Below, in pieces: positions 71 through 62,385 of a DNA stretch of 64,000 nucleotides (position 1 is its first letter; each line of letters begins with the position of its first letter). Below the pieces are notes generated by a model. That model was given only the letters and a program-made list of their open reading frames with translations, did not search any database and was not told the DNA's origin. A program made the position numbers and the translations under genes. The stretch is taken from positions 32,001 through 96,000 of the IMG/VR virus record IMGVR_UViG_3300033121_001619; one strand, given 5' to 3'. This DNA is from a virus. Taxonomy: Duplodnaviria; Caudoviricetes.

Positions 71-778
71 ATGAAGAGGCTGTTTGCACTCGTCACGTCG
101 ATCATTGTCCTCGTCGCATGCGAGAAAAATGAGAGACCGCATCGTCCCATGGGAGAATCGGAGACGTGCGTCTCCGATTGTGGTGGTCAGGGTGGAGGTG
201 GATCGGGAGGCGCCGATGGCTCTGGTGGGGGTTCCGGGGGAGATGCGGGCGGAGGGGGTGGTGTCAGTGCGGTCGGTTCTTCGGCCCCGGTGACGAAGTT
301 AGACATGACTGATGCCATCACCGTCTTTCGAGGTCGTCATTTCTTCCTGAGCAACTTCTATCCAGCGTCTCTCTGGATGGATGGTGTTCAATACAAGACG
401 GCTGAGCACGCTTATCAGGCGTCCAAAGCCGACAACGTCGAAGCGCGTGATGTCATCAGGAACGCATCGAGTCCTGCCGAGGCCAAGCGCCTCGGCAGGT
501 GCGTCAAACTTCCCGCAGATTGGGATCAACGTCGTCTGTCCGTCATGAGGAACGTCATCGAAGCGAAATTCGACAATCCGTTCTTGTCCGAACTTCTTCG
601 ACAGACGGGCGATGCTGACCTGATCCACGAGAACACGTGGAACGACAGATTCTTCGGCGTGTGCCGTGGATCGGGAGAGAATTGGCTAGGTCGCCTATTG
701 ATGGAGACGCGAGATCGTCAGACGAGAGTGACGAACGTGTTACCATCGACTCATGAAGAGAGTCCGGATCACGACTAG
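71..778 (+). CDS. NADAR (YbiA-like) domain protein with an N-terminal lipoprotein signal and Gly-rich linker
   Basis: NADAR motifs FLSNFY, TAEHAYQASK, AKRLGR, EAKF, LIHENTWNDRFFG and GENWLGRLLM. The N-terminus MKRLFALVTSIIVLVAC ends in a lipobox. An in-frame TTA at 740-742 may be the real end. Confidence 0.85.
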   Translation: MKRLFALVTSIIVLVACEKNERPHRPMGESETCVSDCGGQGGGGSGGADGSGGGSGGDAGGGGGVSAVGSSAPVTKLDMTDAITVFRGRHFFLSNFYPASLWMDGVQYKTAEHAYQASKADNVEARDVIRNASSPAEAKRLGRCVKLPADWDQRRLSVMRNVIEAKFDNPFLSELLRQTGDADLIHENTWNDRFFGVCRGSGENWLGRLLMETRDRQTRVTNVLPSTHEESPDHD

Positions 779-1241
779 AAAAGGTCATAAGAATCCATGG
801 AGTTTCGTCGTTTACGATTCCGTGGAGTCTGCTTTTTGCTTGAGAGAGACGCCCCCGAGCGAGAGCGAGGAGATGGGTTACTCGAAGACGATAGAAGCGT
901 CACGTGGCGACATCCTCGAAGTCGAGTGGATGGGAGCGGAATGGTTGAGTCCCAGGGACCTCGGAGGTCCGGACGAGACTAACGTGGCTCCCGCGAGATA
1001 CGACCTGGTGCGAGTCGCGCACGCTAAATCCGACGTGATCGATGAACGTCGACAGCCGAAGTACGTCGAGATATACTCTGGCTGGATATCGGGAGATGCC
1101 TTGATTTGGGTCAACGGTGCCACCCAGAATGGTGCCAAAATAACTCGTATCCTCACGGAGGACGAATCATCATTCGACTTTTCTGTGCTTTTCTCCGATG
1201 ACGCAGGAAGACCGGTCTCGGACGGTCAAGACACGAACTAG
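753..1241 (+). CDS. hypothetical protein
   Basis: 162-aa ORF that fills the gap between NADAR and the convergent structural gene. Confidence 0.6.
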   Translation: MKRVRITTRKGHKNPWSFVVYDSVESAFCLRETPPSESEEMGYSKTIEASRGDILEVEWMGAEWLSPRDLGGPDETNVAPARYDLVRVAHAKSDVIDERRQPKYVEIYSGWISGDALIWVNGATQNGAKITRILTEDESSFDFSVLFSDDAGRPVSDGQDTN

Positions 1242-3650
1242 TCGTAAGCGATTTCTTGCCTTGCCGTCGAAATATGGCATGGAAGAAGTGGCCTCGGTGC
1301 TGACGTTACAAGAGTCAGTGGACGTCGGACTCACTGACTCCACGTAGATGTGTCCTATCCCACGATCGTCCTTCGTGTAAGTCCTACGAACGAACTGGAC
1401 GTTCACGGGTGACGAACCGACGTCCTTCACCGACTTGATCACGGGATTGTCGACGGTCGTCGTCCGAGTACGAATGGCGTCTCGTGAAAACACCTCGTTG
1501 CCGACGATCGTCGATTCCACGTTGATGAACTTCGTGTACTGACGCTGTTCGAGCATGTCGCGGAAGTGTCCGAAGTGATCACGTCTGAATACTGCGCGCG
1601 TGTGATGAGGAAGTCCGCTCACGAGCCCGTGCTTCCATCCCCTGATGATGGGTGCCACTCCGTAGTGGTGCGATCGATACAATTCAGAAGATCCTGACGT
1701 CTGAGGCGTGTAGGACCCATACGTCGGGTTGAATCTCGTGTCCACGATGCGAGTCCTGAACGTCGGATAGTTGTTCCCTCCTATCCTAGAAGTCCTGTCG
1801 ATATCGAACGACGCAGACGTGTATTGGACTATCTCGACGTCGTCGATGGCAGCCAACGATCCCGTCGGAGAAGACGTCGATGATCCTAGCCTGAAATCGA
1901 ACGTCACGCGATACTCGCCAGGATCGTATGGATAAGGGTGGGGAACTGACGAGGCACCCACATAGGGATTCTTTCCAACGCCTGACACTCGCGTGTCGTA
2001 TTGAGACATGGTCACGTAAGTGTCGCCCAATACCACCTCGATCGATTGGATCGAGTCGACGCCACTCGAAGATGCCTCACCGCTTGGGCGTCCAGGAAGA
2101 CCGGAGAAAAACACGTACAGACCTGACGTCGGTGAACCCACGACGGCTCTTTTGTATCTCAAGATCCACGGATAAGACGACGTCACGTCCATCACGCAGA
2201 TGGACGACGACGTAGCGTCACCTCCGAAAGTCGCGATGGTGTCGGAGACCAGTACCCAGCTATTCGATGGAGACGAGGACGACACCCAGTAGACGCCGGG
2301 AGCCTTGACGCTCGACCCGGATATCGTGTTGTAGGTGACGGATGATCCGCTACCGAAGTAATTGGTGGAGTCGAGATACGTCGACGTCCTGCACGCTGCC
2401 CTCCATGGATTTTGACCCACGTTGGGGGACATCGACCAGCTGACTTCCAGCCAAGACGACGCCAACGTATCGCCGAAATATGAGGCACTTTGCACCATGT
2501 GATACGACGCCGACGAGGCAGTCTCATTCACGGTGAAGCTTTGCGTGTATGCCGTCACACCTGCGGAATCGTCGAACAAGTACCTGTCGTGACAGACCGT
2601 GTTGAGATCTCCGAATCCATACAGGAACTTGAACAAGTCGACATCCGTCATTGATCCCGTGATCTTTTCCGATCCGACGTCGGAGAAGCCCAGGTCGACG
2701 AGGTAACCGTGACTATTCAACCTGTCTAGCCTGACGTCGGCGGGCACGACGTTGCCGTGCGTGACATCGTCATCGAAACGTGACGATGTCAAGTTTCGAG
2801 GCTTGTGAAGAGTCAGCATCACGGCCTCTCCGCTCGATCCTGTCGCAGAGTACGTGGATCGATATCCATTGCTTCCGGTGCCGAGGAGGTCGTAGGGAAT
2901 CCTTCCAGGCAGGATGGGAATTAGGCCTTTGGTCGGACGGGGCTTCTTGGACAGGATTGGTGATTCCACGCCATCGACGCTAACGTTTGCTTGAATGACG
3001 GTCGTTGCATTGAACGTCATGTTGGCTAGACGATTGACGGAGGAGTAACGAGCCTCGAAGGGATACGACCACGTCCACGTGTCGTCGTTCAGCGGATCGA
3101 TGTCAAAACCTTCTCCTGACCGGTCCCTTTGGGATCCGTTGAAGGTGACGAAAGCGACATTCCCTGTGACGACGTTGCGAAACGGGCTGAGGAAGGTGTT
3201 GGAAGCGTTGGACGGCGTCCACAAGTGTCGTCCTTGTGATTTGAGACAGTCCTTGTAGTCGGGGACGCAAGAGTCGTAGTACCTCTCGGTCTCATCAAAA
3301 CACTGAACGTTCCTGTAGTTCGTGTGCGACACCCTCTCGTCCCACGGGACTAGACGATATGACAGGTGTGGAACCTGCGTAACGTCAGACGATCCATACG
3401 TGTCGTCGAGAATGGGCGCAGTCGAAGAGTAATACTTGCTGAAAGCTCTCCCACGACTCGGCACCGACGTCGAGAATATGGGTCTCTTACTGCCGACTTT
3501 GAACGACGGCAAGACGACGAGCATCGTCCCAGTGACGTGGTCGTCAATCATCTTCCCGTAGAACGAGGCGTCGTAGTCGACGTCGTACTGATCAAGGACT
3601 GGATCGTCTCCAATGACGTCCTTGACGACTTCGGTGAAAATTGGCGTCAA
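1170..3650 (-). CDS. Ser/Thr-rich putative virion structural protein
   Basis: 826-aa ORF in the structural operon with many SGS/TGS motifs. Its C-terminal block (FRRDHFGHFRDMLEQR...PYFDGKARNR) is followed immediately by TTA at 1247-1245. Confidence 0.75.
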   Translation of the reverse strand: MTPIFTEVVKDVIGDDPVLDQYDVDYDASFYGKMIDDHVTGTMLVVLPSFKVGSKRPIFSTSVPSRGRAFSKYYSSTAPILDDTYGSSDVTQVPHLSYRLVPWDERVSHTNYRNVQCFDETERYYDSCVPDYKDCLKSQGRHLWTPSNASNTFLSPFRNVVTGNVAFVTFNGSQRDRSGEGFDIDPLNDDTWTWSYPFEARYSSVNRLANMTFNATTVIQANVSVDGVESPILSKKPRPTKGLIPILPGRIPYDLLGTGSNGYRSTYSATGSSGEAVMLTLHKPRNLTSSRFDDDVTHGNVVPADVRLDRLNSHGYLVDLGFSDVGSEKITGSMTDVDLFKFLYGFGDLNTVCHDRYLFDDSAGVTAYTQSFTVNETASSASYHMVQSASYFGDTLASSWLEVSWSMSPNVGQNPWRAACRTSTYLDSTNYFGSGSSVTYNTISGSSVKAPGVYWVSSSSPSNSWVLVSDTIATFGGDATSSSICVMDVTSSYPWILRYKRAVVGSPTSGLYVFFSGLPGRPSGEASSSGVDSIQSIEVVLGDTYVTMSQYDTRVSGVGKNPYVGASSVPHPYPYDPGEYRVTFDFRLGSSTSSPTGSLAAIDDVEIVQYTSASFDIDRTSRIGGNNYPTFRTRIVDTRFNPTYGSYTPQTSGSSELYRSHHYGVAPIIRGWKHGLVSGLPHHTRAVFRRDHFGHFRDMLEQRQYTKFINVESTIVGNEVFSRDAIRTRTTTVDNPVIKSVKDVGSSPVNVQFVRRTYTKDDRGIGHIYVESVSPTSTDSCNVSTEATSSMPYFDGKARNRLRLVRVLTVRDRSSCVIGEKHRKVE

Positions 3651-17275: not shown

Positions 17276-18740
17276 GTAACTTCACCAGGACCTTGCTGGC
17301 GTACTTCCCTTGATTCTTTCCGAGTTGGGCCGACGCGTTATTTGCCGTTCCTTTCTTGACCGACCCTGCGAACGAACCTCCCATCGTCGTGACGAGTTGT
17401 CCTCCGACGACGGTACCGTCCTCCGTCGTCACGGGCTGATCCGTGCACACGACGCCCTTGTCAGCATCGGGTCCCCCTAGACGAACGTATCCCTTTTCGC
17501 TCGGCGTGAAGACGATGTCTCCGTTCCTCTTTATCGTGATCGAAGCGAAGCGAGTTGGATCCGTCGACTCGTCTTTCCTGCCCGTGAAACCTTCCTCGGT
17601 GGACTCGTCGTAGTCGGTGACGATGAACGATATGTCGGATCGTGCTATGATTCGCACCTTGTCTGACTTCAGGACGATCCCAGCGTCTCCGTCGGCTGAG
17701 TCCGTCACATCGGGAAACGATATTTCGAACGACCCGTCGACCTTCATTCGCTGTGAGACTAGAAGACGACTCCTGTCATTCTTGAAATCTGGGTCGCCCT
17801 CCCTGGGCGCTAGAGCATCAGGCGACTTGTCCAATTCTCTCTTGAGAACGGTTCCCTTCTTGGATTTGGACGCGTCGACGAAGCTCGTCGTATCTGCTGC
17901 CCTTCCAGCCGTGTCAGCAGTGTAACCTCGGCCGGCCACGATATCGATCGACCCGGCGCGGCCTTGTTCCGTCAATGGATCGATATCGATCGATCCGGAT
18001 CTAGCGAAGCCAAGACTGATCAGTGTGTTGTTCGATCCTTCGAGGACCACGTCTGGAGACCTCTTGCGAAATCTCGGGACCGGTTCGTAGACGTGTCTCT
18101 TCTTCGCGGTCGTCTCTTGGACTATGGACTCGAATATGTCATCCTCATGACCGACGAGGATGCTTCCGTCTCTGACGGCAACGCGCTCTCCGTCGACTGT
18201 CGTGACAGGAGTGTTTCTCAACTCGAACCACGGGTCGGACCCATCTGACTTTGACTTGGAACCGGGATGGAACGAAGGTTCGGATGACCTACCGGGATGC
18301 GAGTGATTGACGTCGTCACTAGTGTGTGGTTCGACGATCCTGCACACCCAATACGCCACGTCGACGGTCCGTGCCGCTGGATTTTCCACGAACACCCAGA
18401 CCGCCTCTCCCGGTTTTGCCGGAAGAGAGAGACTAGATGGGAAAAATGGGAACACGAACATGGGCGGTGAATCGTCTCCGACTCTCTGACCCACGATCGT
18501 GTTTCGTGGAAGAACATTGACCAGATCCATGTTCGATACGCCCAACCTCTGCCACTCCTCGGCTAGCTCTGCGCGAGAGTCCGGACTCATGTTGGGATCG
18601 TCGACAACGTCGATGACGATCATTCTGACGAAGTGCGGTTTTTGAGGAGGGACGTACGTCCTTCCTGCGTTTTCCACGTTTAGTCGACCCTCGACGAAGT
18701 CGACGAGGTTGTCCTGAGTCGTTCGTCTATAGTCAGACAA
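17193..18740 (-). CDS. putative baseplate hub/spike (gp5/gpV-like) protein
   Basis: FPFFP...LPAKPGEAVWV (OB-fold-like), DVVLEGSNNTLISLG and IVLKSDKVRIIAR. Probable TTG start at 18740 after GAGG. In-frame TTA at 17279-17277 lies just before the next ATG. Confidence 0.65.
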   Translation of the reverse strand: MSDYRRTTQDNLVDFVEGRLNVENAGRTYVPPQKPHFVRMIVIDVVDDPNMSPDSRAELAEEWQRLGVSNMDLVNVLPRNTIVGQRVGDDSPPMFVFPFFPSSLSLPAKPGEAVWVFVENPAARTVDVAYWVCRIVEPHTSDDVNHSHPGRSSEPSFHPGSKSKSDGSDPWFELRNTPVTTVDGERVAVRDGSILVGHEDDIFESIVQETTAKKRHVYEPVPRFRKRSPDVVLEGSNNTLISLGFARSGSIDIDPLTEQGRAGSIDIVAGRGYTADTAGRAADTTSFVDASKSKKGTVLKRELDKSPDALAPREGDPDFKNDRSRLLVSQRMKVDGSFEISFPDVTDSADGDAGIVLKSDKVRIIARSDISFIVTDYDESTEEGFTGRKDESTDPTRFASITIKRNGDIVFTPSEKGYVRLGGPDADKGVVCTDQPVTTEDGTVVGGQLVTTMGGSFAGSVKKGTANNASAQLGKNQGKYASKVLVKLHAQSASGGRPGWQWMYGPCRHTHTPWR

Positions 18741-22868: not shown

Positions 22869-23130
22869 GTTTTCCCAACCATCCTCTCAAGCGGGAATTC
22901 CACGAACCGGTCCTGTAGTCCGTCTCCCAAATGATATGGACATTATATCCATGGCTGGTCTGCTCGTTAACTCTACTTTCGTCGTAAGCCCATATCTTGC
23001 TAGCGGACATTTTTTGATGTGATGAAAAATGTGTCGGACACTTCGGTGGATTGCAATGCCAATAGTCACCGGTGAAAAAAGAAGAAGCCCGGATTCCCGG
23101 GCTTCTTTCGTCGCGAATTGTCGCCGTCAC
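22720..23130 (-). pseudogene. truncated Vsr/DUF559-like (EDxHD-type) homing endonuclease remnant
   Basis: FFTGDYWHCNP...IWAYDESR...GYNVHIIWETD motifs, with the N-terminal half missing. Locally AT-richer. The frame runs across exon 1 and into the intron. Confidence 0.75.
23075..23107 (-). terminator. Rho-independent terminator
   Basis: AAGAAGCCCGG-GAAT-CCGGGCTTCTT hairpin followed by CTTTTTT, just after the nuclease gene. Confidence 0.8.
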
Positions 23131-23134: not shown

Positions 23135-23971
23135 TTACGTGCAGTGAGGTGTCTCCTTGAACTCACACCACGTACACGACAGACGATTCTTGAACGCACG
23201 CCTGGCATTGACGGACCCAATCATGTTGTTGACGACCTTGAGAGACCTTCCTATCGGGACCGGTCCCATGGAGACGTCGAATAGTTCCACGTGGGATCCT
23301 GGTTTTGCATTACGCTTCAGGATGACGAAGCCACATCGAACATCCGTTGGTTGCAATTGAGGGTTCTTCTTGAGCCAGAAATTCTTGTAGAGTGCTAGCT
23401 GGTATTTCAGCGTCTCATCTTGACGTTTTTCCTTGAACCAACCGGCTCGAGACGTCTTCCAGTCGAGTATCCACTGAATTCTCTTGCCTCGTTTGCCCGT
23501 CGCTTCTATGACGGCATCGATGAAACCTTTGAATGCATGAGGATGACCATCGATCGATTCGTACAGGGCATGCTCAGCGTCGATCGTTTTCCACTCAGGA
23601 AAGGTGGCGTCCAAGAACGTCGGCACTTCGTTGACTATCTCCACGGAGTCTTGAAGGGCAGACTTCAGGGAGTCGTCATTGAAGTCTGCGATGCCAGCCT
23701 CCGATCTTTCCTTCCATGTATTGCGAAATGACTCCTCTAGCTGAGCGACGTCGATGATCCGCGTCTTCAGGAAGTTCTCGAGACAGTCGTGCACTATCGT
23801 TCCGAATTCCAGCGTCGGATTGGGAGTGAACGACGACAGGCCTTTCACGTGGATGAGATTGTGTCTCCACGAACACTCACTCCACGTCTTGACTTCGGAG
23901 AACGAGACGTGCGGTTTTCCGGTCGGAAGGTTAACGAATTGACTGGTGTGCTCGGTCTTCTCTTGATCCAC
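23135..23971 (-). CDS. PD-(D/E)XK nuclease (RecB/Cas4-like)
   Basis: HVSFSEVKTWSEC, FKGFIDAV, ILDWKTS, QLALYK and terminal CTWCEFKETPHC. GTG start at 23971 after GAGGGA. Confidence 0.88.
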   Translation of the reverse strand: MDQEKTEHTSQFVNLPTGKPHVSFSEVKTWSECSWRHNLIHVKGLSSFTPNPTLEFGTIVHDCLENFLKTRIIDVAQLEESFRNTWKERSEAGIADFNDDSLKSALQDSVEIVNEVPTFLDATFPEWKTIDAEHALYESIDGHPHAFKGFIDAVIEATGKRGKRIQWILDWKTSRAGWFKEKRQDETLKYQLALYKNFWLKKNPQLQPTDVRCGFVILKRNAKPGSHVELFDVSMGPVPIGRSLKVVNNMIGSVNARRAFKNRLSCTWCEFKETPHCT

Positions 23972-24528
23972 TCGTCCCTCATGAGTCCTAGGATGTGACA
24001 ATCGATGTATCGACCTTCGTCGTAATGGTGAGCTCTTCGGAGCCCCTCGGGCACGAATCCGATCTTCTTGTAGACGTGAATGGCGTCGTTGTGATCGAAG
24101 ACCTCGCACCAGACGCGATTGAGATTCATGACATCGAAGGCATAATCCATGAGGAGGGTGAGTGCCTCCTTTCCATACCCACGTCCTCGATGGTGACGAG
24201 ATCCGATGTAGATGGATAGCTCGGCGTGTCGGGCGAGCCAGTTCACGTAGTAGAGACCACAGTGACCTATCAGGGATGACAATCCAGGAATGATGGGCGT
24301 GAGATCACGAGGATCCTCATTGGGGGTCGTCATGTCGTGAATCTCGAAATCGACTTGGTTGGGATTACCCAGGACTAGCTTCTCATACCACGCATTTTGC
24401 ATGTCACGAGATATCTCTCGATGCTCCCTGAAGTGCCTTCGAAGTGTTGGATCGTTACGCCAACTCCTGAGAGTGTCGAGCGACTCTCGCTCGACAGACT
24501 TCAGACCGACTCTTTTACCGCGTATCAT
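23845..24528 (-). CDS. pseH: GNAT N-acetyltransferase (PseH/RimL-like)
   Basis: LRSWRNDP...IGHCGLYYVNWLARHAELSIYIG...RGRGYG...AIHVYKKIGF, inside the sugar cluster. In-frame TTA at 23934-23932 precedes a low-complexity tail. Confidence 0.75.
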   Translation of the reverse strand: MIRGKRVGLKSVERESLDTLRSWRNDPTLRRHFREHREISRDMQNAWYEKLVLGNPNQVDFEIHDMTTPNEDPRDLTPIIPGLSSLIGHCGLYYVNWLARHAELSIYIGSRHHRGRGYGKEALTLLMDYAFDVMNLNRVWCEVFDHNDAIHVYKKIGFVPEGLRRAHHYDEGRYIDCHILGLMRDEWIKRRPSTPVNSLTFRPENRTSRSPKSRRGVSVRGDTISST

Positions 24529-42172: not shown

Positions 42173-42423
42173 ACAAGATCGATACCACCACCAAGCAAGT
42201 CAAGGATGCATTCGAGTACGCCAAGTCAAAGACGATATCGATGATCGTCAGCGCCGCACCGCCTCAGACCCCGGACGAGGAGAGGCGTCTCAAGACAGTG
42301 ATCGATTGCGTCACTAGCGGAATCGACGAGGCGTTCCTAAAGACCGCACCATCACTCCAGAAGTCGTTTGCTGCGCTGCTCGCGGGGAAGTTAGCATGTC
42401 CACAGTCGGACACATCCACCTGA
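42169..42423 (+). CDS. hypothetical protein
   Basis: 84-aa ORF. In-frame TTA at 42391-42393 lies 2 nt before the next ATG. Confidence 0.65.
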   Translation: MNKIDTTTKQVKDAFEYAKSKTISMIVSAAPPQTPDEERRLKTVIDCVTSGIDEAFLKTAPSLQKSFAALLAGKLACPQSDTST

Positions 42424-42862: not shown

Positions 42863-43102
42863 GTGTCCATGTCGAAGACAGTCACGAAGAAGCAACTCGA
42901 AGACTTGAACAACGACTCACTAGCTGCTAGAGAAGTGGTTCGTGAGATCATGAATTTCGGCGTAAATGAGCGTCAGAAAGTCATAATCATCCAAAGCCTC
43001 GCCATGACGCTAGAGGACAATGAACTCATGCGAGCTTTGCTTGATTGCATCTCTGACATTGCTGGAGACAAGGTCTTCATCTCGAAGATGTTTGGAGAAT
43101 GA
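42863..43102 (+). CDS. hypothetical protein
   Basis: 79-aa ORF in the operon (REIMNFGVNERQ). Confidence 0.65.
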   Translation: MSMSKTVTKKQLEDLNNDSLAAREVVREIMNFGVNERQKVIIIQSLAMTLEDNELMRALLDCISDIAGDKVFISKMFGE

Positions 43103-43103
43103 C

Positions 43104-43751
43104 ATGGGACGTCAATCAAATTCCAGGCTATCGAATTCGTCTCGCCAAGATTCACGACATCCCAGTGCCGATGCCGAATTCGGAGGAATGGCTCTCTCTG
43201 CCGGCGATGCTAGCAGGATCGTCGTCTTGCATGGCGAGGTCAACGAGACGTCTGTCTCGGTCGTTGTCGCCAATCTCTTGCATATGGCTTCGGTCGACTT
43301 GAGTCCCATCTACCTTGTCATCTCGACGTACGGTGGATCTGTCGATGAGATGTTCACGTTGTACGACACCATCAAATTCCTCCCATGCCCAGTCCACACG
43401 ATCGCTTTGGGAAAGGTCATGTCAGCTGGAGTGTTGCTGTTGGCTTCTGGGACGAAGGGTAAACGCATGATCGGAAAGTCTGCGAGGATCATGATACACC
43501 CGGTTTCGGGCGGAGCGACGGGAAATGTGTTTCAGGTCGTTGCAGAAGCCGACGAACACGTCAGACTCCAGGACCAAATGGCGGACGCGATCGCCAATGA
43601 GACGAAGATGACACGTCAGAAGGTCAGGAAGATCATGTCGACCGGTCACGACGTCTACATCACGCCCGATGACGCTGTGAAGTACGGCATCGTGGACAAA
43701 ATCATCGGAGCTTCCGTCAGGGACGTCATGAAAAGTTCGGAGTTAGTGTAG
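43104..43751 (+). CDS. clpP: ATP-dependent Clp protease proteolytic subunit
   Basis: ISTYGGSV, GKVMSAG (Ser), IMIHP (His), D, AVKYGIVDKII. In-frame TTA at 43743-43745. Confidence 0.9.
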   Translation: MGRQSNSRLSNSSRQDSRHPSADAEFGGMALSAGDASRIVVLHGEVNETSVSVVVANLLHMASVDLSPIYLVISTYGGSVDEMFTLYDTIKFLPCPVHTIALGKVMSAGVLLLASGTKGKRMIGKSARIMIHPVSGGATGNVFQVVAEADEHVRLQDQMADAIANETKMTRQKVRKIMSTGHDVYITPDDAVKYGIVDKIIGASVRDVMKSSELV

Positions 43752-43764: not shown

Positions 43765-45402
43765 ATGCCACGTCATGACTATCGACCCTTCTTTCCGTTC
43801 GATGACGTGCGTTCGGAGCAGGATGAGGCGATAAGATTTGCAATCGATGCATTCGAGTCTGGGAAGAAGTACGTAGTTCTCGAGCTTCCGACCGGGATTG
43901 GAAAATCAGCCATAGGACTCACGGTAGCACGCTACATGAATCAGCACGGAGACGACGTGCTTGATGCGGAAGGTCTACCTGTTCAGCGCACGTCATACGT
44001 GCTGACAACACAAAAGATACTCCAGGATCAGTATGTCAAGGATTTCGGAGAGGCGTCCGGAAGAGACGTCCTGAGATCCATCAAGTCATCGTCGAATTAT
44101 TCGTGTGGATTCTACTCAGGATCGACGTGTGCTGACTCGCGAAGACTCATGCGACTCATGTCAAAGGAAGTCGCAGGAACAGAATTCGAGAGACACTGTA
44201 AGTCATCGAAATGCCCGTACGCGTCTGCCAAGGCAGAGTTCGAGGCGTCTCTGGTGTCGTTGACGAATTTTCCGTTCTTCCTCGCTAGCAAGAATCTGTC
44301 TACACGCTCAACGCTGGTGATCGATGAGTGTCACAATGCTGAGTCGGAATTGGCTAAATTCGTGGAAGTCTCCTTTTCGGAGAGATTCGCGAAGGACATA
44401 CTGAAGTGCAAGGTCCCGAAGATAGACTCGCAGCAAGCAGCCTTCGATTGGGTGTGTGCTTCTTATAAGCGTGCGCTTCTCAAGCATCAAAAGTCGATCA
44501 ATGAGCGTCTGAAGTCAGGAGATCGTGGAGAGAACTCCAGACAAGCCGAGATGCTGGAGAAGCACGTGGAGAAAGTCCTGAAGTTCATCCAGATATACGA
44601 TGAATCTAACTGGGTGATGAACGTCGTGTACCCGAAAGATGGAGCCAAGAGAGGATTTCGACGCTTCGAATTCAAGCCGGTCGACGTGTCCCACTTCGGT
44701 GGAGAACTTTTCGGGAACGCGGGAAGGATTCTAATGATGTCTGCCACAATAGTGGACAAGGACGTCTTTTGTCGATCGATTGGAATTCCCGTTGACGACG
44801 CGGCCTACCTGAGGCTAGCTTCCCCTTTCTCCGTCGAGAATCGTCCCGTCCTCTTCATGCCCGTGGGATCGATGTCGAAATCGAATATCGACAGAACGCT
44901 TCCGAAGATGGTCGAGACCATAAAAGAGATCTTGGCGATCCACCCCGACTCAAAGGGAATCATACACACGGCCAATTACAGGATAGCCAAGCACATCCAA
45001 GACTCGATACCGTCGGATCGATTCGTCTTCCACGAAGCTAGCAACAGAGAGGAAGCTCTCAAGTTTCACCTTGCGTCGAAGGATCCGACGGTCATAGTGT
45101 CTCCCTCGATGATGGAGGGAGTCGACTTGTCAGACGACGCGTCACGTTTTCAAGTGATCTGCAAGATACCGTTCCCGTATTTGGGAGACCTCATGGTGAA
45201 GCGGCGCATGGAGAGGGATTCAACGTGGTATCCTTACGTCACCGCGAAATCGATCATTCAGTCACTCGGAAGATCCATCAGGAACAAGGACGACCACGCG
45301 ATGTCGTACATCCTCGACAGCGACTGGACCAACTTCTACGCCAGGAATGAGAGAATGTTCACTGACGACTTTCGTTTGGCACTTCACAGTTTACTGCGGT
45401 GA
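43765..45402 (+). CDS. DinG/XPD-like SF2 helicase
   Basis: PTGIGKS, LQDQY, DECH, MSAT, SMMEGVDL, KIPFP, QSLGRSIR and ILD motifs. In-frame TTA at 45391-45393. Confidence 0.9.
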   Translation: MPRHDYRPFFPFDDVRSEQDEAIRFAIDAFESGKKYVVLELPTGIGKSAIGLTVARYMNQHGDDVLDAEGLPVQRTSYVLTTQKILQDQYVKDFGEASGRDVLRSIKSSSNYSCGFYSGSTCADSRRLMRLMSKEVAGTEFERHCKSSKCPYASAKAEFEASLVSLTNFPFFLASKNLSTRSTLVIDECHNAESELAKFVEVSFSERFAKDILKCKVPKIDSQQAAFDWVCASYKRALLKHQKSINERLKSGDRGENSRQAEMLEKHVEKVLKFIQIYDESNWVMNVVYPKDGAKRGFRRFEFKPVDVSHFGGELFGNAGRILMMSATIVDKDVFCRSIGIPVDDAAYLRLASPFSVENRPVLFMPVGSMSKSNIDRTLPKMVETIKEILAIHPDSKGIIHTANYRIAKHIQDSIPSDRFVFHEASNREEALKFHLASKDPTVIVSPSMMEGVDLSDDASRFQVICKIPFPYLGDLMVKRRMERDSTWYPYVTAKSIIQSLGRSIRNKDDHAMSYILDSDWTNFYARNERMFTDDFRLALHSLLR

Positions 45403-57646: not shown

Positions 57647-58393
57647 ATGGGATTTCTAGACAACTCGACGAACAACCTCATCATTGACGCAGTCCTGACG
57701 GATTATGGTCGTCAGCTCTTGGCTCAGGCGAACGGATCTTTCAACGTCAAGTACTACGCATTCGGTGACGATGAGGTCGATTACCGTCTGATCAAGCGAT
57801 ATGGGAGGACGGTCGGCAAGGAGAAGATCGAGAAGAACACTCCGATCCTCGAGGGCATCACGAACCCAGCTGTCGCCTTGAAGTACAAGCTTGTCGGTCG
57901 TGAGACGTCGGGAGAGACGTCGGCGGCATTCATGCCAATCCTTCAGACGACATCGACGCCAGCTCTGGTCAAGAACACCCAGTCGTCCTACACGGTGACG
58001 GTCGATCTCTACTACAACAACTCGACGGGAGCCGCAGTACCAGTAGAACTCATCCAGCCCGTGTACAAGATAGCTGTGTCCGATAGGTTCTTCACCATAA
58101 CGGATTCCGGGATGGGTAGGATAACAGCTCCTGCAGCTGGATCGTCGATGATAAATGCGGGAGATCCGAACAGGACGGTCACGTACACGTACACCGTGAC
58201 GAACAATTCCACATCGATATCTTTCGTCGTCACCGCCAAGAACATCGACAACACGACGCTGTCGGTGTATGGGAAGAGGATCAACTCCACTTCGTCGACC
58301 AGAGAGATCACAAGCTACATCACGGTCACGGGGGAGAGACATGGATGCACCATCAACATACCCGTGACTTACAGGGCTTCTCTCACCTTATAG
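57647..58393 (+). CDS. putative tail/baseplate structural protein
   Basis: MGFLDNSTNNLIIDAVLTDYGRQLLA...YAFGDDEVDY. The gene ends TTA TAG. Confidence 0.8.
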   Translation: MGFLDNSTNNLIIDAVLTDYGRQLLAQANGSFNVKYYAFGDDEVDYRLIKRYGRTVGKEKIEKNTPILEGITNPAVALKYKLVGRETSGETSAAFMPILQTTSTPALVKNTQSSYTVTVDLYYNNSTGAAVPVELIQPVYKIAVSDRFFTITDSGMGRITAPAAGSSMINAGDPNRTVTYTYTVTNNSTSISFVVTAKNIDNTTLSVYGKRINSTSSTREITSYITVTGERHGCTINIPVTYRASLTL

Positions 58394-58405
58394 GATTGGA
58401 ATCAC

Positions 58406-59698
58406 ATGTCGACCCAAAAGCAGCTACTTCCATCCGACAAGAAGGTGACTCGAACGTTCTTGACGCAGCTCATAGACGTCATCCAGGAGGACGTATCGTC
58501 GTCAGCTTCGCGCAGGAAGTATCAGTCGTTCGTGACTGGAGGCATCGGACCCGGGGTGACGTCGAGTCTGTTTCAGACCGTATACGACCAAGATTTCACC
58601 CTACAGACTGCCAACCCGGTCTTCGACATAACGTTCGGTCTCGCGCCACCCGACGTCAACGTCGATGGTATAGCCGCAACGACATCGACGGCTGTGGACG
58701 ACGGTGGCAAGTATCTTTATCCGAGCAGCTCTCTCATGATGAGAGAGAAGACGGACATTTACGGTCAATTCTCACAGATTCTCCTCGGAGACAGGGGAGA
58801 GACTTTCAAACTGCCAGTCGATCCAACGTTCACGACGTCTCAGACGACGACCGACATCGATGCCGCACTGTTCATCGCCTTCAAGCGTCTCTTCTCGCGC
58901 GATCAGATCAAGCGTGAGACCTTCGCGATGAAGTTCTATCAGACCGCTTCCTACGTCAGCACCATCGCCGGACAGGACACGCCTCCGGCAGCCGATTCCA
59001 GCGGAGTGACGAACATCTACCGGACTTCGACGACAGGCTCGGCGATCTACACCGACATAGGATCTTCGGATTCTCGCTTCTTCAGCGTGGGTGGACAGTA
59101 CGGATACCTCGTCAACGCTGCCAACACGTCGAACGCCGTCGGCCTGATCTACTACGATCATGGCATCGTCGTCCTCGACATCGAGAAGGTCACGTCAGGA
59201 TCTCAGTTCATATCGGGAACCATCTCTGCCATGAACTCCCTGGGACAGACGGTCCTCGGAGGCGCTGGGACCGAGACAGCATACACGGCGAAGGTCGTCC
59301 CAGATCTCTTGACGTCCGGATCGATCGACGACGTGATCGATCACTTCAGCTACGCTCGATTCGGAAGCGGCACTCAGACGGCGTTCACGTTCCAGAACTC
59401 GACGTACATCAACTCGTCACTGATCTTCTGCAACGCCCTGCCAGACGATTTCAATTACTCTTCGAATCCCACGTACACCGAGGAGAGCGGAGACTTCAAG
59501 GGTAGACTGACGATATACGATCCCGCCCTTCCAGAGGAGTCTCAGGAGCCTTTTGCCTTCATCACCACGATCGGCCTGTATGACAACACGGGAGGGTTGG
59601 TGGCTGTGGCGAAACTCAGCCGGCCCGTGGAAAAGAATCCTGGGCGAAACCTTTCATTTAGGGTCCGGACTGACTATTTATGTCAGTCATACGTGTGA
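58406..59698 (+). CDS. putative tail/baseplate structural protein
   Basis: C-terminal FNYSSNPT...ITTIGLYD...VAVAKLSRPVEK...RVRTDY, then TTA at 59678-59680 overlapping the next ATG. Confidence 0.8.
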   Translation: MSTQKQLLPSDKKVTRTFLTQLIDVIQEDVSSSASRRKYQSFVTGGIGPGVTSSLFQTVYDQDFTLQTANPVFDITFGLAPPDVNVDGIAATTSTAVDDGGKYLYPSSSLMMREKTDIYGQFSQILLGDRGETFKLPVDPTFTTSQTTTDIDAALFIAFKRLFSRDQIKRETFAMKFYQTASYVSTIAGQDTPPAADSSGVTNIYRTSTTGSAIYTDIGSSDSRFFSVGGQYGYLVNAANTSNAVGLIYYDHGIVVLDIEKVTSGSQFISGTISAMNSLGQTVLGGAGTETAYTAKVVPDLLTSGSIDDVIDHFSYARFGSGTQTAFTFQNSTYINSSLIFCNALPDDFNYSSNPTYTEESGDFKGRLTIYDPALPEESQEPFAFITTIGLYDNTGGLVAVAKLSRPVEKNPGRNLSFRVRTDYLCQSYV

Positions 59699-62385
59699 CA
59701 TCAGACGACGTGCAGCACACCACGGTGATCACCACACCGAGGCGTTACTACGCGTCTTCGTCACACGGAACGACGGGATCTGTTCTGGTGAGACCTAGGG
59801 CATCATCGTACGAGAAGTCGACCGATGCTTTCGAGGACAGACACGAGGATTCATCGTACGATTCTCTCTTGAGATCGACGCTGTCGAGAGCGAAGTACTT
59901 CAGGGCGTCGTCACGCAACATCTTCACGACGATGCAGACGTATGTGTCGGGGGTCAATGTCCTGAGCGAAAAGGACGACGTCGTGATGGACGTCACCCGA
60001 TTCACCCCCGGCACCAGTTTCACGAAGTATTTCTTGCGCAAGGGTATCGTGAAGGACACGCTGATGCGTTATTATCGCACGGCATATCCTCAGGCCACGT
60101 GGGCCTACACGAATTCGAACGCCCTGAATTTCTTCACGGCGTTCTCCGGATCGACTCAGCTAGTTCCTACGGGATCGGTCCTGCTCTATCCCAACGTCGT
60201 GACGTCATCAGCTCCGGAGCACGTGGGTTACGTCTCTGGATCCTACTGTCTTTCCGGAGCCTTCACTTTCGATCTACACGTGAATCCTCGCTACGAGGAC
60301 GACGGGATAGACGCAGGACACTTCAAGGACGGGACAATCCTTCACCTGTCTTCGTCGTATGCTCTCTCCTTGGTGACTGGGTCTCACAAGGACGCTAGGG
60401 GATTCCCGCTAGGATTTCGCCTCAAGCTTCAGCTGAGTCACAGCGCCGGTCTGGCACCGTCGTCCACGAATCCCGGGTCGTATCCGCACGATCTCACGTT
60501 CCTGTCCGACGATAATTCTTTGACGAGGAATCGATGGCATCACGTCATCGTCAGATGGGGAACGTCACTCGTGGACGCTGGGACGGGGTCCTTCGTCATC
60601 GATGGTCGCCGCTCGGGAAATTTCGTGATACCGTCGGGAACGATATCACCAAGACCGTTCGTGAATTCTCTCAATCCCGACGTCCTGTGTCTGGGAAACT
60701 TCTACGAGGGAACGAATTACGGCACGTCTGCCCAAAGCATATTCTTCTCTCCAGACAACGCTACGCGAGACGGCGTCGACCAGCTGACGTCCGAGAACTC
60801 CGTCGAGGATCCTGTCAACTATCGATTCAATCATCCGCTCAAGGCCGAACTGCACGACGTCCTCATTCGACGTCATTATCTCACCGACAGTGAGATCGTC
60901 GCCTCTGGTTCCACGGGTCACGGACGATCCGTCAGGGACCAGATGGACTTCGCCTTCTACGTTCCACCGTTCTTCGTCCAAGAGGGACCGATCTTGCGGT
61001 GGGTCGGTGACCGAGGCGGTGTGCTGCAAACACCGTTCTTCGAGGTGGATGGTACCACGGACGACCCGTTCAACGTGGCCATGTCGTTCGGGGTCGGCGG
61101 TCACATGATCAACCTGGAGAATTTCGTGAAGGACTTCTCGACAGGTAGGTTTCCTCGTCTATTTCGACTCACGGGATCGACAATCGATCACACGACCGAT
61201 CTCCTCGATGCCAACGACGTGATCTATTCCGATCCCGGCGTCGTGAAGAGGAACTTGTCCATTTTGCCGTGCGACGACGGGACGTTTGATCCGTGTTACG
61301 AGCTTCTCGACGACGAGAACTACACCAACAAATACGTGGACGCCGAGGGAGTGACGGACCTGAGTCTCATCAGCCTGTCTGGACTCTTGTCGACGTCATC
61401 CTTTCAGGCAGGAGGAATCCACGCGGAGTCGCCTGATGACTACGTCGAATTCCTCTACGGACCGTCTCCGGAGAAACCGGGTCTCGAGCCCGGGAAGTCG
61501 TTCTTGAAGTACATGAGTCTCCTGACAGCGTCCATAGGATCGGACGGTCAGATCGATCGTGGAGTTCAGCAGGGTGCCCCTCTCACGATTTATCAGCGTA
61601 CGCAAGACTCCTCGTCGAATCAAGTCACGTTCTTCAACGTGTCAAACATCTTCTACGGACGAAGGATCCTGCCCGGATCCGTCGTGTTGCGTGACTCATC
61701 GATGACAGGTAGCTCAGGAGTCGTGTCAATCACATTGAGAGACGACGCGATGGGAAGCCTCTATCGGGCAGACTCCGACACTCCCCATCACATCAAGAAC
61801 ACCGTTGGGAACGTCTTCTACGACGAGGGAATAATCGTCGTCAAGAGTCCTCACTTGAATTTCTTTGGCAAGGATGGCTTCGAGCTCGAATTCAAGGGTG
61901 TACAGCACATCAATGTCACACGCTATGAGATCGTCGCACCTTCTGGCATGCTCAATTCCTCGTCCAATCCCACGCATCCAGGCTGGGATCTCCGACCATC
62001 GTCCAATCCGATCGACACGGAACCCTTCGTATACATCAGCGGCATCAATCTCCACGACTCCAACATGAATGTCGTCGCTCGTGTCAGACTGGCTCAGCCG
62101 GTCATGAAGAGAGAGGGAGATCGTCTTCTCTTCCGCGTGGCCATGGATTCGTTATGTCGACTCGCAGGAGACGACGAACAAAGCGAAGATACCATCGCGG
62201 CGATCACGTCTCGACCAAGACCGGTCTCACTTGCAGGTATCGAAGCGGCTGGGAGAAATCCTACATGGATCACTTGGACTCCGATCCCAGGGTCGTCGAC
62301 TGGCTCTACGAGGCCCTATCCATCGAGTACGTGTCCAACAAACGAACGGGCAAGATTCGTCGCTATTTCCCGGACTTCGTGGTGA
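59680..62385 (+). CDS. virion protein with a LamG-like domain and a C-terminus paralogous to 58406
   Basis: WHHVIVRW; GNVFYDEG; NSSSNP...YISGINLHD...VVARVRLAQPVMK...FRVAMDS, then TTA at 62152-62154. The remaining 77 codons overlap the next gene. Confidence 0.8.
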   Translation: MSVIRVTSDDVQHTTVITTPRRYYASSSHGTTGSVLVRPRASSYEKSTDAFEDRHEDSSYDSLLRSTLSRAKYFRASSRNIFTTMQTYVSGVNVLSEKDDVVMDVTRFTPGTSFTKYFLRKGIVKDTLMRYYRTAYPQATWAYTNSNALNFFTAFSGSTQLVPTGSVLLYPNVVTSSAPEHVGYVSGSYCLSGAFTFDLHVNPRYEDDGIDAGHFKDGTILHLSSSYALSLVTGSHKDARGFPLGFRLKLQLSHSAGLAPSSTNPGSYPHDLTFLSDDNSLTRNRWHHVIVRWGTSLVDAGTGSFVIDGRRSGNFVIPSGTISPRPFVNSLNPDVLCLGNFYEGTNYGTSAQSIFFSPDNATRDGVDQLTSENSVEDPVNYRFNHPLKAELHDVLIRRHYLTDSEIVASGSTGHGRSVRDQMDFAFYVPPFFVQEGPILRWVGDRGGVLQTPFFEVDGTTDDPFNVAMSFGVGGHMINLENFVKDFSTGRFPRLFRLTGSTIDHTTDLLDANDVIYSDPGVVKRNLSILPCDDGTFDPCYELLDDENYTNKYVDAEGVTDLSLISLSGLLSTSSFQAGGIHAESPDDYVEFLYGPSPEKPGLEPGKSFLKYMSLLTASIGSDGQIDRGVQQGAPLTIYQRTQDSSSNQVTFFNVSNIFYGRRILPGSVVLRDSSMTGSSGVVSITLRDDAMGSLYRADSDTPHHIKNTVGNVFYDEGIIVVKSPHLNFFGKDGFELEFKGVQHINVTRYEIVAPSGMLNSSSNPTHPGWDLRPSSNPIDTEPFVYISGINLHDSNMNVVARVRLAQPVMKREGDRLLFRVAMDSLCRLAGDDEQSEDTIAAITSRPRPVSLAGIEAAGRNPTWITWTPIPGSSTGSTRPYPSSTCPTNERARFVAISRTSW

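What the first reader, a model, noticed from the sequence alone, without database searches (positions are those of the whole stretch)
740..62154. TTA (UUA) behaves like a fourth stop codon: possible novel genetic code in a phage
Seen: scanning by eye every tta/taa in the ~60 real genes (roughly 20,000 codons), I found no in-frame TTA inside any gene body, although TTG, CTA and ATA are used freely. All ten in-frame TTAs lie at 3' ends: 740, 1247(-), 17279(-), 23934(-), 42391, 43743, 45391, 58388, 59678 and 62152. Six of them remove an overlap if read as stops. They leave gaps of 10, 3, 1 and 2 nt (740, 1247, 17279, 42391) or give TTATG stop/start couplings like TAATG (59678, 62152). Three have a canonical stop 1-3 codons later (TTA TAG, TTA GTG TAG, TTA CTG CGG TGA). 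The tenth (23934) only shortens an overlap. TAA, TAG and TGA are also used as stops. Known: UUA as stop is described for Thraustochytrium mitochondria (table 23). Known phage recodings that I am aware of go stop-to-sense, not sense-to-stop. Inference: UUA terminates translation, either through an altered release factor or through absence or destruction of tRNA-Leu(UAA) followed by ribosome rescue.
Basis: partly seen in the sequence, partly recalled or inferred. Interest (0 to 1): 0.95.

Follow-up and report, generated by a model that had tools for sequence, protein, structure and literature searches.

The report
TTA used as a stop codon
In this large phage genome fragment the leucine codon TTA never occurs inside genes and instead sits exactly where related phages have ordinary stop codons, so it most likely ends translation; a sense-to-stop change like this is so far described only in a few mitochondria.

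Summary
The window is part of a 126-kb IMG/VR phage contig (GC 55%, about 38% complete). In table-11 ORFs, 26 of 38,380 codons are TTA. Seventeen of these lie in the last 31 codons (P = 1e-11). The rest precede true starts or separate two in-frame genes.

For six genes, including terminase and two tail proteins, the canonical stops of 1-34 homologues align exactly, or within one codon, with the TTA. This matches how well they align at this phage's own TGA/TAG/TAA stops. The stretches after TTA have non-coding codon usage, and conserved downstream genes start 0-30 nt after it.

The phage's own tmRNA gives independent support. Its tag frame ends ...ALAA-TTA, where two related phage tmRNAs have ...LAA-TGA.

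Relatives use TTA as a rare Leu codon or hardly at all, and none places it at stops. No sequencing artefact fits the pattern.

I read UUA as a functional terminator (about 0.75). The mechanism is unresolved: no release factor or tRNA-Leu(UAA) lies on the contig, and the host is unknown.

Earlier scan notes on overlapping windows of this same genome reached the same reading. Nothing similar was noted on other DNA. No phage or bacterial precedent turned up in the literature searched.

The parts
299..301 (+). In-frame TTA ending a 76-aa ORF (71-298). The NADAR gene starts at ATG 305 in the same frame.
   Evidence: The Pfam NADAR domain covers residues 89-216 of the fused 235-aa ORF, which is after this TTA.
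740..742 (+). TTA ending the NADAR gene (305-739). There is a 10-nt gap to ATG 753; the table-11 stop lies 11 codons later.
1245..1247 (-). TTA ending an 801-aa gene (1248-3650). It lies 3 nt from the convergent gene 753-1241; the table-11 tail is 24 codons.
   Evidence: The homologue evidence is ambiguous: two relatives run 11-15 residues past the conserved ...ARNR.
17277..17279 (-). TTA ending a 487-aa baseplate-region protein. The next gene's ATG follows 1 nt later; the table-11 tail is 27 codons.
   Evidence: 32 of 34 homologues end ...KKVLIK-stop exactly here. Tail coding score is -0.34 per codon.
23932..23934 (-). TTA ending the GNAT acetyltransferase gene (23935-24567). It shortens the overlap with the downstream PD-(D/E)XK gene from about 127 nt to about 40 nt.
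42391..42393 (+). TTA ending a 74-aa gene. The next ATG follows at 42396; the table-11 tail is 9 codons.
43743..43745 (+). TTA ending the ClpP-like protease gene (TTA GTG TAG).
45391..45393 (+). TTA ending the helicase gene (TTA CTG CGG TGA).
58388..58390 (+). TTA ending a 247-aa gene (TTA TAG).
   Evidence: One homologue stops at this position.
59678..59680 (+). TTA ending a 424-aa tail protein, arranged as TTATG with the next gene's start.
   Evidence: 9 of 9 homologues end ...FRVRLDF-stop exactly here. The downstream gene's homology starts at residue 1.
62152..62154 (+). TTA ending an 824-aa tail protein, arranged as TTATG with the TnsA-like gene 62154-62552.
   Evidence: 14 of 14 homologues end ...FKVAFD(Y/F/W)-stop exactly here.
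62155..62385 (+). 76-codon stretch left open by table 11 after the TTA at 62152. It is not coding in that frame and overlaps the conserved TnsA-like gene.
   Evidence: Coding score is -0.17 in frame against +0.18 in the downstream gene's frame. Homology of the downstream protein starts at residues 1-13. Pfam Tn7_TnsA-like_N.

Best explanation
In this phage UUA is not read as leucine. It serves as a fourth termination codon beside UGA, UAG and UAA, and ends about 22 of about 133 genes on the contig. These include terminase, portal, ClpP, a helicase, baseplate and tail proteins, and the tag frame of the phage's own tmRNA.

**Shown in silico:**
- TTA is absent from all internal, homology-supported codon positions.
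- TTA occupies the exact positions of canonical stops in relatives.
- The sequence after TTA is non-coding in that frame.
- Conserved downstream genes begin right after it.

**Inferred:**
- The ribosome terminates at UUA.
- The likely route is codon capture. First, TTA disappeared under compositional pressure. Next, tRNA-Leu(UAA) was lost; this loss is seen in the GC-richer relatives' tRNA arrays. Finally, the free codon was captured by a class-I release factor with relaxed reading of the second base.
- That factor could be phage-encoded, since relatives carry a truncated RF1-like gene. It could also be the host's.

Neither the factor nor the tRNA status is visible on this 38%-complete contig.
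For: 1. **Position.** 17 of 26 in-frame TTAs fall in the last 31 codons of table-11 ORFs (P = 1e-11). No other codon exceeds a 15% share there. The other nine precede likely starts or sit at two in-frame gene junctions followed by an SD and ATG.

2. **Homologues' stops align to the TTA.**
   - 17279(-): 32 of 34.
   - 59678: 9 of 9.
   - 62152: 14 of 14.
   - 80047: 9 of 10.
   - 58388: 1 of 1.
   - Terminase (137-codon table-11 tail): 7 of 7 at 0 or +1.
   - Exact-hit rate is 58% for TTA against 51% for TGA, 72% for TAG and 100% for TAA.
   - The aligned stops in relatives are TGA 29, TAA 20 and TAG 19.

3. **Tails look non-coding.** They score -0.14 per codon. Equal-length stretches before the TTA score +0.27, and control 3' ends score +0.25.

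4. **Downstream genes are real.** Their homology starts at residues 1-13 right after the TTA.

5. **tmRNA.** It scores 64 bits in Rfam. Its tag reads ...CTC GCG GCC TTA, aligned to ...CTC GCG GCC TGA in the tmRNAs of two relatives, whose tag is ANDNGFADDVRLAA-stop. Read as Leu, the tag would lose its LAA end. The phage also encodes a ClpP.

6. **No internal TTA.** No real-frame alignment to about 1 Mb of relatives spans an in-frame TTA.

7. **Relatives use TTA as Leu.** They place it inside genes, for example 38 times spread evenly over 21,591 codons in the most similar 67-kb contig. None places it at stops.

8. **tRNA-Leu(UAA) in relatives.** One relative's tRNA array has tRNA-Leu(taa). The syntenic arrays of the GC-richer relatives lack it.

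9. **Gene map.** With TTA as a stop, coding rises from 115,170 nt to 118,476 nt with fewer genes, and gaps become -1 to 30 nt instead of overlaps of up to 400 nt.
Against: - No protein-level or ribosome-level data exist.
- No release-factor domain is on the contig, and no altered RF was found. RF recognition of U at the second codon position has no bacterial precedent.
- Absence from gene bodies is partly compositional. TTA and TAA are depleted off-frame too. Relatives at GC of 0.56 or more have 0-0.4 TTA per 1000 codons without any change of code.
- Two genes are ambiguous. Homologues of 1248-3650(-) run 11-15 residues past the TTA. Homologues of the small gene ending TTA TAC TTA at window-equivalent 69100 run 7 residues past it.
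- The contig carries an ochre-suppressor-type tRNA (anticodon UUA) whose role is unexplained. It shows that this phage tampers with termination in ways I do not understand.
- The host and 62% of the genome are unknown.
Confidence: 0.75

Rival explanations
1. UUA is an unassigned 'hungry' codon. No tRNA-Leu(UAA) is available, either because the host lacks it or because the phage destroys it. Ribosomes stall at UUA and the finished protein is freed without codon recognition, by ArfB-type GGQ factors, peptidyl-tRNA drop-off or trans-translation. UUA then works as a de facto stop without any release factor that reads it.
For: There is no tRNA-Leu(UAA) on the contig. The GC-richer relatives have lost theirs. 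The phage carries a tmRNA. Relatives carry a truncated RF1-like GGQ protein. Several TTAs have a canonical stop 0-2 codons later, as leaky stops tend to.
Against: The tmRNA's own tag frame ends in TTA. Rescue by trans-translation would therefore stall again and tag the phage's own terminase, portal and tail proteins for degradation. Truly unassigned codons, as I recall for Micrococcus and Mycoplasma, are simply absent and are not placed at 22 gene ends. Two TTAs separate genes in the same frame, which needs efficient termination. The relatives' mini-RF keeps a PxT-type codon-reading motif, so it is not a codon-blind rescuer.
Confidence: 0.13
2. TTA is a conditional stop. It terminates or stalls while tRNA-Leu(UAA) is scarce, and is read through as Leu when a phage or host tRNA-Leu(UAA) appears. 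This would give timed C-terminal extensions or fusions, a bldA-like switch.
For: Two TTAs join ORFs in the same frame: the 76-aa ORF with NADAR, and the 124-aa ORF with portal. Relatives encode large tRNA sets, including tRNA-Leu(taa) in one of them. UUA-dependent regulation and bypassing are described for Streptomyces and phage Hau3 (PMC10732093).
Against: The tails have non-coding composition and mostly overlap conserved downstream genes in another frame. No tail is conserved in any relative. The tmRNA tag would lose its LAA end on readthrough.
Confidence: 0.06
3. Standard code: TTA is an extremely rare Leu codon. The terminal TTAs are tolerated stop-loss mutations or chance, so the proteins really carry the tails.
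For: TTA is rare for compositional reasons in GC-rich relatives too. Off-frame depletion of TTA and TAA shows a DNA-level bias. Several tails are only 0-5 codons long.
Against: About 22 independent stop losses would all have to land on the genome's rarest codon, and never on another sense codon. They would include a 137-codon extension of terminase, a 76-codon overlap of a conserved gene, and a fusion of portal with its upstream gene. The tmRNA tag shows the same substitution.
Confidence: 0.04
4. Sequencing, assembly or base-modification artefact: true TAA or TGA stops are reported as TTA.
For: The contig is a single metagenomic assembly.
Against: An error process is blind to reading frame. 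Converting TAA or TGA to TTA off-frame would turn Lys, Asn, Glu or Asp codons into Tyr or stop codons and break ORFs, yet the ORFs are intact and align with homologues. 12-15 TAA and about 86 TGA stops remain unchanged. No shared sequence context surrounds the sites.
Confidence: 0.02

Closest known systems
NCBI genetic code table 23 (Thraustochytrium mitochondria, TTA = stop) and UUR = stop in Pycnococcus provasolii mitochondria
   Same: The same codon changes from Leu to termination. In both cases this was inferred from its absence inside genes and its position at gene ends. For Pycnococcus, unusual mtRF1a mutations are noted as a possible cause (PMC6821328). Table 23 is cited from my own knowledge.
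   Different: Those are tiny organellar genomes with a dedicated, nucleus-encoded release factor. This is a bacteriophage that must work with, or override, a bacterial host's tRNAs and release factors. All three canonical stops stay in use.
UCA/UCG sense-to-stop reassignment in sphaeroplealean green-algal mitochondria (table 22 and variants)
   Same: A sense-to-stop change of a U-N-A codon. It is explained there by codon disappearance followed by capture, and it correlates with changes in the single release factor mtRF1a (PMC6821328). The relatives here show the matching early stages: TTA disuse and loss of tRNA-Leu(UAA).
   Different: A different codon (Ser) in an organellar setting. Here no release factor is available to inspect.
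Stop-codon recoding in phages (TAG or TGA read as an amino acid, with suppressor tRNAs and phage release factors); from my own knowledge of Ivanova 2014, Al-Shayeb 2020, Borges 2022 and Peters 2022
   Same: A phage whose code differs from table 11. This phage and its relatives carry suppressor-type tRNAs (anticodon UUA here, CUA in a relative), large tRNA sets, and in relatives an RF1-like gene.
   Different: The direction is opposite: sense to stop, not stop to sense. TAA, TAG and TGA all still coincide with homologues' stops here. I found no report of a sense-to-stop code in a phage or bacterium.
Rare UUA and bldA tRNA regulation in Streptomyces, and UUA-triggered bypassing in phage Hau3
   Same: UUA is nearly absent from the genomes, Streptomyces phages usually lack it entirely, and the few that remain have a special translational role (PMC10732093).
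   Different: There UUA still codes for Leu, or triggers a bypass, inside coding sequences. Here it replaces stop codons at gene ends. GC is 55%, not about 70%, and other A/T-ending rare codons (ATA, AGA, CTA) are used freely.
Unassigned codons under the Osawa-Jukes codon-capture model (AGA/AUA in Micrococcus luteus, CGG in Mycoplasma capricolum); from my own knowledge
   Same: A codon vanishes under compositional pressure together with its tRNA.
   Different: Unassigned codons are simply not used. Here the codon has reappeared at about 22 gene ends and in the tmRNA tag.

Membership tests
Sense-to-stop codon reassignment (as in table 23: TTA = stop) | The codon is absent from internal, homology-supported positions of coding sequences. 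| tested here: met
   No in-frame TTA lies inside any real-frame alignment to about 1 Mb of relatives. Every in-frame TTA in ORFs is at a 3' end, upstream of the likely start, or at a gene junction.
Sense-to-stop codon reassignment (as in table 23: TTA = stop) | The codon occupies the positions where homologues have canonical stops. | tested here: met
   This holds for six genes, exactly or within one codon, in 1-34 homologues each. The hit rate is the same as at canonical stops. The tmRNA tag stop also aligns to TGA in relatives.
Sense-to-stop codon reassignment (as in table 23: TTA = stop) | The cognate tRNA, tRNA-Leu(UAA), is absent. | tested here: inconclusive
   None is on the 126-kb contig. 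However, the contig is 38% complete and the host is unknown. GC-rich relatives lack it, while one relative has it.
Sense-to-stop codon reassignment (as in table 23: TTA = stop) | A release factor with changed codon specificity is present. | tested here: inconclusive
   No RF-1 domain is on the contig. Relatives carry a truncated RF1-like gene with a PPT motif, plus variants (PPN, PAN, PET and others). None of those contigs shows TTA at stops.
Sense-to-stop codon reassignment (as in table 23: TTA = stop) | Proteins end at the codon, shown by proteomics or ribosome profiling. | not testable with these tools
Phage stop-codon recoding (TAG, TGA or TAA read as sense) | In-frame canonical stops interrupt conserved genes. 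| tested here: not met
   Table-11 ORFs are long and intact. TAA, TAG and TGA ends coincide with homologues' ends: TAA 15 of 15, TAG 26 of 36, TGA 101 of 197 exact.
Phage stop-codon recoding (TAG, TGA or TAA read as sense) | A suppressor tRNA is encoded. | tested here: met
   A tRNA with anticodon UUA lies at contig positions 14662-14734 (Rfam 51.8 bits; ARAGORN). I did not test whether it has any recoded TAA target.
Unassigned codon | The codon is not used anywhere in expressed reading frames, gene ends included. | tested here: not met
   About 22 genes and the tmRNA tag have TTA exactly at their ends.
bldA-type UUA regulation | UUA codes for Leu inside a subset of regulated genes. | tested here: not met
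   No internal TTA was found at any Leu position.

The most novel reading that the evidence does not exclude
The four-stop code (UGA, UAG, UAA, UUA) is not a private trick of one phage. It could be the code of its still unidentified bacterial host lineage. Alternatively, it is imposed on a standard-code host by a phage-encoded release factor that reads UUA. In that case the factor would also shut off host translation by ending host proteins at their internal UUA codons, while the UUA-free phage genes escape. Either way this would be the first sense-to-stop reassignment outside organelles. Current gene callers, and Codetta, cannot see such a change (PMC9825746).
Probability: 0.3. Interest if true: 0.97.

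Novelty: new variant of a known kind. Interest (0 to 1): 0.9.

Why it matters
All natural code changes described so far in bacteria and phages turn stops into sense codons or swap amino acids. Sense-to-stop changes are reported only from a few mitochondria (PMC6821328).

- A phage that ends a sixth of its genes, and its tmRNA tag, with a leucine codon would show that termination specificity can also evolve in bacterial systems.
- It would give a concrete object in which to look for a release factor that reads U at the second position.
- It would expose a blind spot. Table-11 gene callers fuse or over-extend these genes (terminase +137 aa, a 124-aa protein fused to portal). [quoted passage not shown]
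- The test that worked here can be run over all metagenomic contigs. It asks what share of a sense codon lies in the last 30 codons, and whether that codon coincides with homologues' stops.
- It also bears on phage-host conflict over translation and on the design of recoded organisms.

Tried and rejected
- **Host.**
  - A genome-contig scan with the PseB-like enzyme gave only 40-47% identity across many phyla, which is uninformative.
  - A DNA search of the phage collection found nothing. PhoH protein hits were 36% identity or less.
- **Mechanism genes.**
  - No RF-1 domain is on the contig.
  - Pfam over 94 of its proteins showed no release factor, Pth, ArfB or anticodon-nuclease family, though the second list was cut at 25 of 38 families.
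  - The RF1-like mini-factor of relatives was traced into 7 viral and 80 metagenome loci. None looks like the missing part of this phage, and loci with variant motifs (PPN, PAN, PET, PPS) show no TTA at stops.
- **Pth2-like gene.** Another first-stage note read a Pth2-like gene beside the suppressor tRNA. Pfam, NCBIfam and PDB sequence searches gave no support.
- **Homologue searches with little yield.**
  - The 824-aa tail protein found nothing through the search for related loci. Its relatives appeared instead in the flanks of the terminase loci.
  - Homologue tests for 1247(-) and contig position 12794 were ambiguous or uninformative.
- **False leads from my own gene caller.** The minus-strand ORF at 69133-69363 and the plus-strand ORF at 20876-21043, both 'ending in TTA', are shadows of genes on the other strand.
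- **Apparent counter-examples.** The blastx hits that seemed to span in-frame TTAs were all in antisense or off-frame shadow ORFs.
- **+1 slip idea.** A +1 slip from TTA-G/A onto TAG or TAA, as discussed for Streptomyces adpA, is rejected. TTA is followed by C or T at 16 of 22 sites and never by A.
- **Suppressor tRNA identity.** It could not be assigned by similarity to relatives' tRNAs.

Full report
**What the DNA is**

The window is bases 32,001-96,000 of a single 126,319-bp IMG/VR virus record. The record is linear and CheckV rates it 38% complete. GC is 55%.

The contig encodes terminase, an intein-bearing portal, baseplate and tail proteins, PhoH, a ClpP, a helicase and sigma-70-type factors. 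It also carries a nonulosonic-acid and glycosylation gene cluster. Shine-Dalgarno-type sites precede the starts, so this is a fragment of a large bacteriophage.

The relatives found by protein search are metagenomic jumbo phages of 300-370 kb, and some of these are complete.

**Checking the observation**

In the window, my greedy set of table-11 ORFs holds 21,008 codons. That set contains 19 in-frame TTA, against 305 TTG and 184 CTA. Three of the 19 sit in a 61-aa ORF at 24359-24544 that I take to be spurious.

From position-specific base composition about 178 TTA are expected. CTA, TTG and ATA are at expectation.

Over the whole contig there are 26 in-frame TTA in 38,380 codons, and 17 of them lie within the last 31 codons. 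That is 65%, whereas no other codon exceeds 15%. The binomial P is 1.2e-11.

The other nine are explained as follows:
- Five lie within the first 6-33 codons of an ORF, upstream of a better start.
- One is the 62152 site, 77 codons before the table-11 stop.
- One lies in the 5' part of the 71-778 ORF (299).
- One lies in the 5' part of the 1,676-aa 'portal' ORF (window-equivalent 71513).
- In both of the last two cases an SD and ATG follow, and the recognisable protein (NADAR domain, portal) starts after the TTA.

The site at 299 is an addition.

**Is the depletion itself special?**

Only partly. TTA is also rare in frame +1 (26 seen, about 158 expected). TAA is 2.4-3.6-fold depleted off-frame. 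TA has observed/expected 0.53, and TTAA occurs 13 times in 126 kb.

Relatives with GC of 0.56-0.61 have 0-0.4 TTA per 1000 codons under an ordinary code. Relatives nearest in composition (GC 0.51-0.54) use it at 1.8-3.4 per 1000, spread evenly through genes. That rate would predict about 70-130 internal TTAs here.

So codon disappearance alone could be compositional. What needs explaining is where the surviving TTAs sit.

**Homologues**

I fetched about 1 Mb of related phage DNA around the baseplate gene and the terminase. I then compared every protein's C-terminus by tblastn.

| Gene (ending at) | Own C-terminus before TTA | Homologues' ends |
|---|---|---|
| 17279(-) | ...VLVK | 32 of 34 end ...VLIK-stop at exactly that codon |
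| 59678 | ...RVRTDY | 9 of 9 end ...RVRLDF-stop |
| 62152 | ...VAMDS | 14 of 14 end ...VAFD(Y/F/W)-stop, although table 11 leaves 76 more codons open |
| 80047 (window-equivalent) | ...GKSSV | 9 of 10 end ...GKSSV-stop |
| Terminase | ...RWLLT | 7 of 7 end at 0 or +1 (...SWLYK-stop), although table 11 adds 137 codons |
| 58388 | not shown | the one available homologue ends at the TTA |

As a control, I measured how often homologues' stops coincide exactly with this phage's ends. The rate is 58% at TTA ends, 51% at TGA, 72% at TAG and 100% at TAA. TTA therefore behaves like the canonical stops.

The relatives' stops at these positions are TGA 29, TAA 20 and TAG 19. Relatives even use TTA for a conserved Leu a few codons upstream of one of these ends.

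**After the TTA**

The stretches between a TTA and the next table-11 stop score -0.14 per codon on a coding-versus-off-frame codon model. Equal-length stretches just before the TTA score +0.27, and the last 25 codons of genes without TTA score +0.25.

In the long tails the positive score lies in the frame of the downstream gene. Homology of the downstream proteins begins at residues 1-13 immediately after the TTA. This holds for the TnsA-like gene at 62154, the tail gene at 59680, portal, and the gene at 80064.

Treating TTA as a stop gives more coding sequence with fewer genes. It also turns overlaps of up to about 400 nt into gaps of -1 to 30 nt.

A blastx of the whole contig against all ORFs of the relatives found no real-frame alignment that spans an in-frame TTA. 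The apparent hits were antisense or off-frame shadows, or extensions upstream of the start.

**An independent witness: the tmRNA**

Rfam finds a full-length tmRNA at contig positions 119,726-120,104 (64 bits).

Its tag frame reads ...AAT GAT TCG GCT CCT CTC GCC CTC GCG GCC TTA, that is ...NDSAPLALAA followed by TTA. SsrA tags end in a free ...LAA directly before the stop; this point is from my own knowledge.

Two related phages have homologous tmRNAs in which the same CTC GCG GCC is followed by TGA. ARAGORN reads their tag as ANDNGFADDVRLAA-stop. It does not call the tmRNA of this phage at all.

Read as Leu, the tag would run on for 11 residues and lose its end. The phage also encodes a ClpP, whose gene itself ends in TTA.

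**Artefact?**

An error or base-modification effect that turned TAA or TGA into TTA would be blind to reading frame. It would then break genes by changing AAR to TAR off-frame. The ORFs are intact, 12-15 TAA and about 86 TGA stops remain, and the sites share no sequence context. I could not inspect reads.

**Mechanism**

Nothing on the contig explains it. There is no RF-1 domain. There is no tRNA-Leu(UAA); the only tRNAs are Thr(CGU) and one with anticodon UUA. No Pth, ArfB or anticodon-nuclease family appears among 94 proteins scanned.

Relatives offer two leads:
- Their tRNA arrays hold 35-50 tRNAs. The GC 0.54-0.56 relative has tRNA-Leu(taa) between Gly(gcc) and Thr(tgt). The syntenic arrays of the GC 0.61 relatives lack it. 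This fits codon disappearance followed by tRNA loss.
- Beside these arrays sits a 196-aa truncated RF1-like protein. It has GGQ and a PPT codon-reading motif, and its best NCBIfam match is RF1 residues 157-325. The family is widespread in jumbo-phage contigs and shows motif variants. None of those contigs shows TTA at stops.

I therefore favour capture of the freed codon by a release factor with relaxed second-base reading, encoded by the phage or the host.

A rescue-only model (hungry codon plus tmRNA or ArfB) fits poorly, for three reasons:
- The tmRNA's own frame ends in TTA.
- Essential structural proteins would be tagged for degradation.
- Two TTAs separate genes in the same frame.

The role of the UUA-anticodon (ochre-type) tRNA is unexplained. 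TAA still coincides with homologues' stops in the two genes that could be tested.

**Comparison with what is known**

Sense-to-stop changes are described for mitochondria:
- TTA in table 23 (from my own knowledge).
- UUR in Pycnococcus.
- UCA and UCG in Sphaeropleales, with correlated mtRF1a changes and a codon-disappearance scenario (PMC6821328).

Phage recodings known to me go from stop to sense. Three full-text searches found no phage or bacterial sense-to-stop case. Codetta states that it cannot detect such changes (PMC9825746). Streptomyces phages avoid UUA, and phage Hau3 uses it as a bypass trigger inside a gene, which is a different use (PMC10732093).

**Verdict**

Its best reading is that UUA terminates translation in this phage (about 0.75). 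The mechanism and host are open.

Earlier first-stage notes on overlapping windows of this same genome came to the same reading, including the tmRNA point. I reached the tmRNA point before seeing those notes. The scan has not reported the phenomenon on other DNA.

Noticed in passing
L005:3726-4104 (contig 119,726-120,104; outside the window); TTA at L005:3857-3859: The phage encodes a tmRNA (Rfam 64 bits) whose tag frame ends ...ALAA-TTA. ARAGORN calls the homologous tmRNAs of two relatives (tag ANDNGFADDVRLAA-stop) but not this one. A tRNA-Thr(cgt) follows 22 nt downstream.
   Followed up: yes
L002:14662-14734 (contig coordinates; outside the window): An ochre-suppressor-type tRNA with anticodon UUA (Rfam tRNA 51.8 bits), class I, discriminator A73. 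Its amino-acid identity was not resolved. A relative (G002) carries an amber-type tRNA (anticodon CUA) instead. TAA still behaves as a stop in the two genes that could be tested.
   Followed up: partly
window 22567-22899 (-): A group I intron (Rfam RF00028, 53 bits, full-length model match) lies next to, or within, a glycosyltransferase gene.
   Followed up: no
window 20170-40402 (-): A long minus-strand cluster for a nonulosonic-acid-type sugar and its transfer. It includes NeuB (25894-27012), an aminotransferase (26907-28178), a PseB-like dehydratase (29724-30764), a cytidylyltransferase, GNAT acetyltransferases, PIG-L, a formyltransferase and several glycosyltransferases.
   Followed up: partly
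L004:7540-12078 (window-equivalent 71540-76078): The portal gene is 1,513 codons long and carries intein and HNH endonuclease insertions (Pfam Intein_splicing, HNH_3). Homologues align in pieces around them.
   Followed up: partly
whole contig: Extreme oligonucleotide bias in 126 kb: TCGA 1,949, GATC 1,319 and ACGT 1,287 occurrences, against TTAA 13 and TATA 89. GA/TC observed/expected is 1.6, GC 0.61 and TA 0.53. ATA, AGA and AGG are common despite 55% GC.
   Followed up: no
L126:1450-2040 (-) in relative G002; 7 viral and 80 metagenome loci (L127-L213): A 196-aa truncated RF1-like protein sits beside the tRNA arrays of related jumbo phages. It has GGQ and a PPT codon-reading motif and lacks domain 1. 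Motif variants PPN, PAN, PET, PRT, PPS, SPT, SST and PIT occur in other contigs.
   Followed up: partly
L127:6670-6756 compared with L129:6765-7005 and L128:6547-6859: In syntenic phage tRNA arrays, tRNA-Leu(taa) is present in the GC 0.56 relative and absent from the two GC 0.61 relatives. In one of those it is replaced by a second Gly(gcc).
   Followed up: partly
L002:14312-14629 (+): A small gene upstream of the suppressor tRNA has an in-frame TAA at codon 4. Another first-stage note called it Pth2-like. Pfam, NCBIfam and PDB sequence searches gave no significant match.
   Followed up: partly
window 43020-43745 (+): The ClpP homologue matches cellular ClpP models (about 137 bits) better than phage head-maturation protease models (54 bits). 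Its presence is notable beside a phage tmRNA with an LAA-type tag.
   Followed up: partly
window-equivalent 69100-69108 (L004:5100-5108): A small zinc-ribbon-like gene ends ...AAT GCG TTA TAC TTA, two TTAs one codon apart. The table-11 stop TAA then overlaps the next gene's ATG (ATGAATAA). Homologues run 7 residues past the first TTA.
   Followed up: partly
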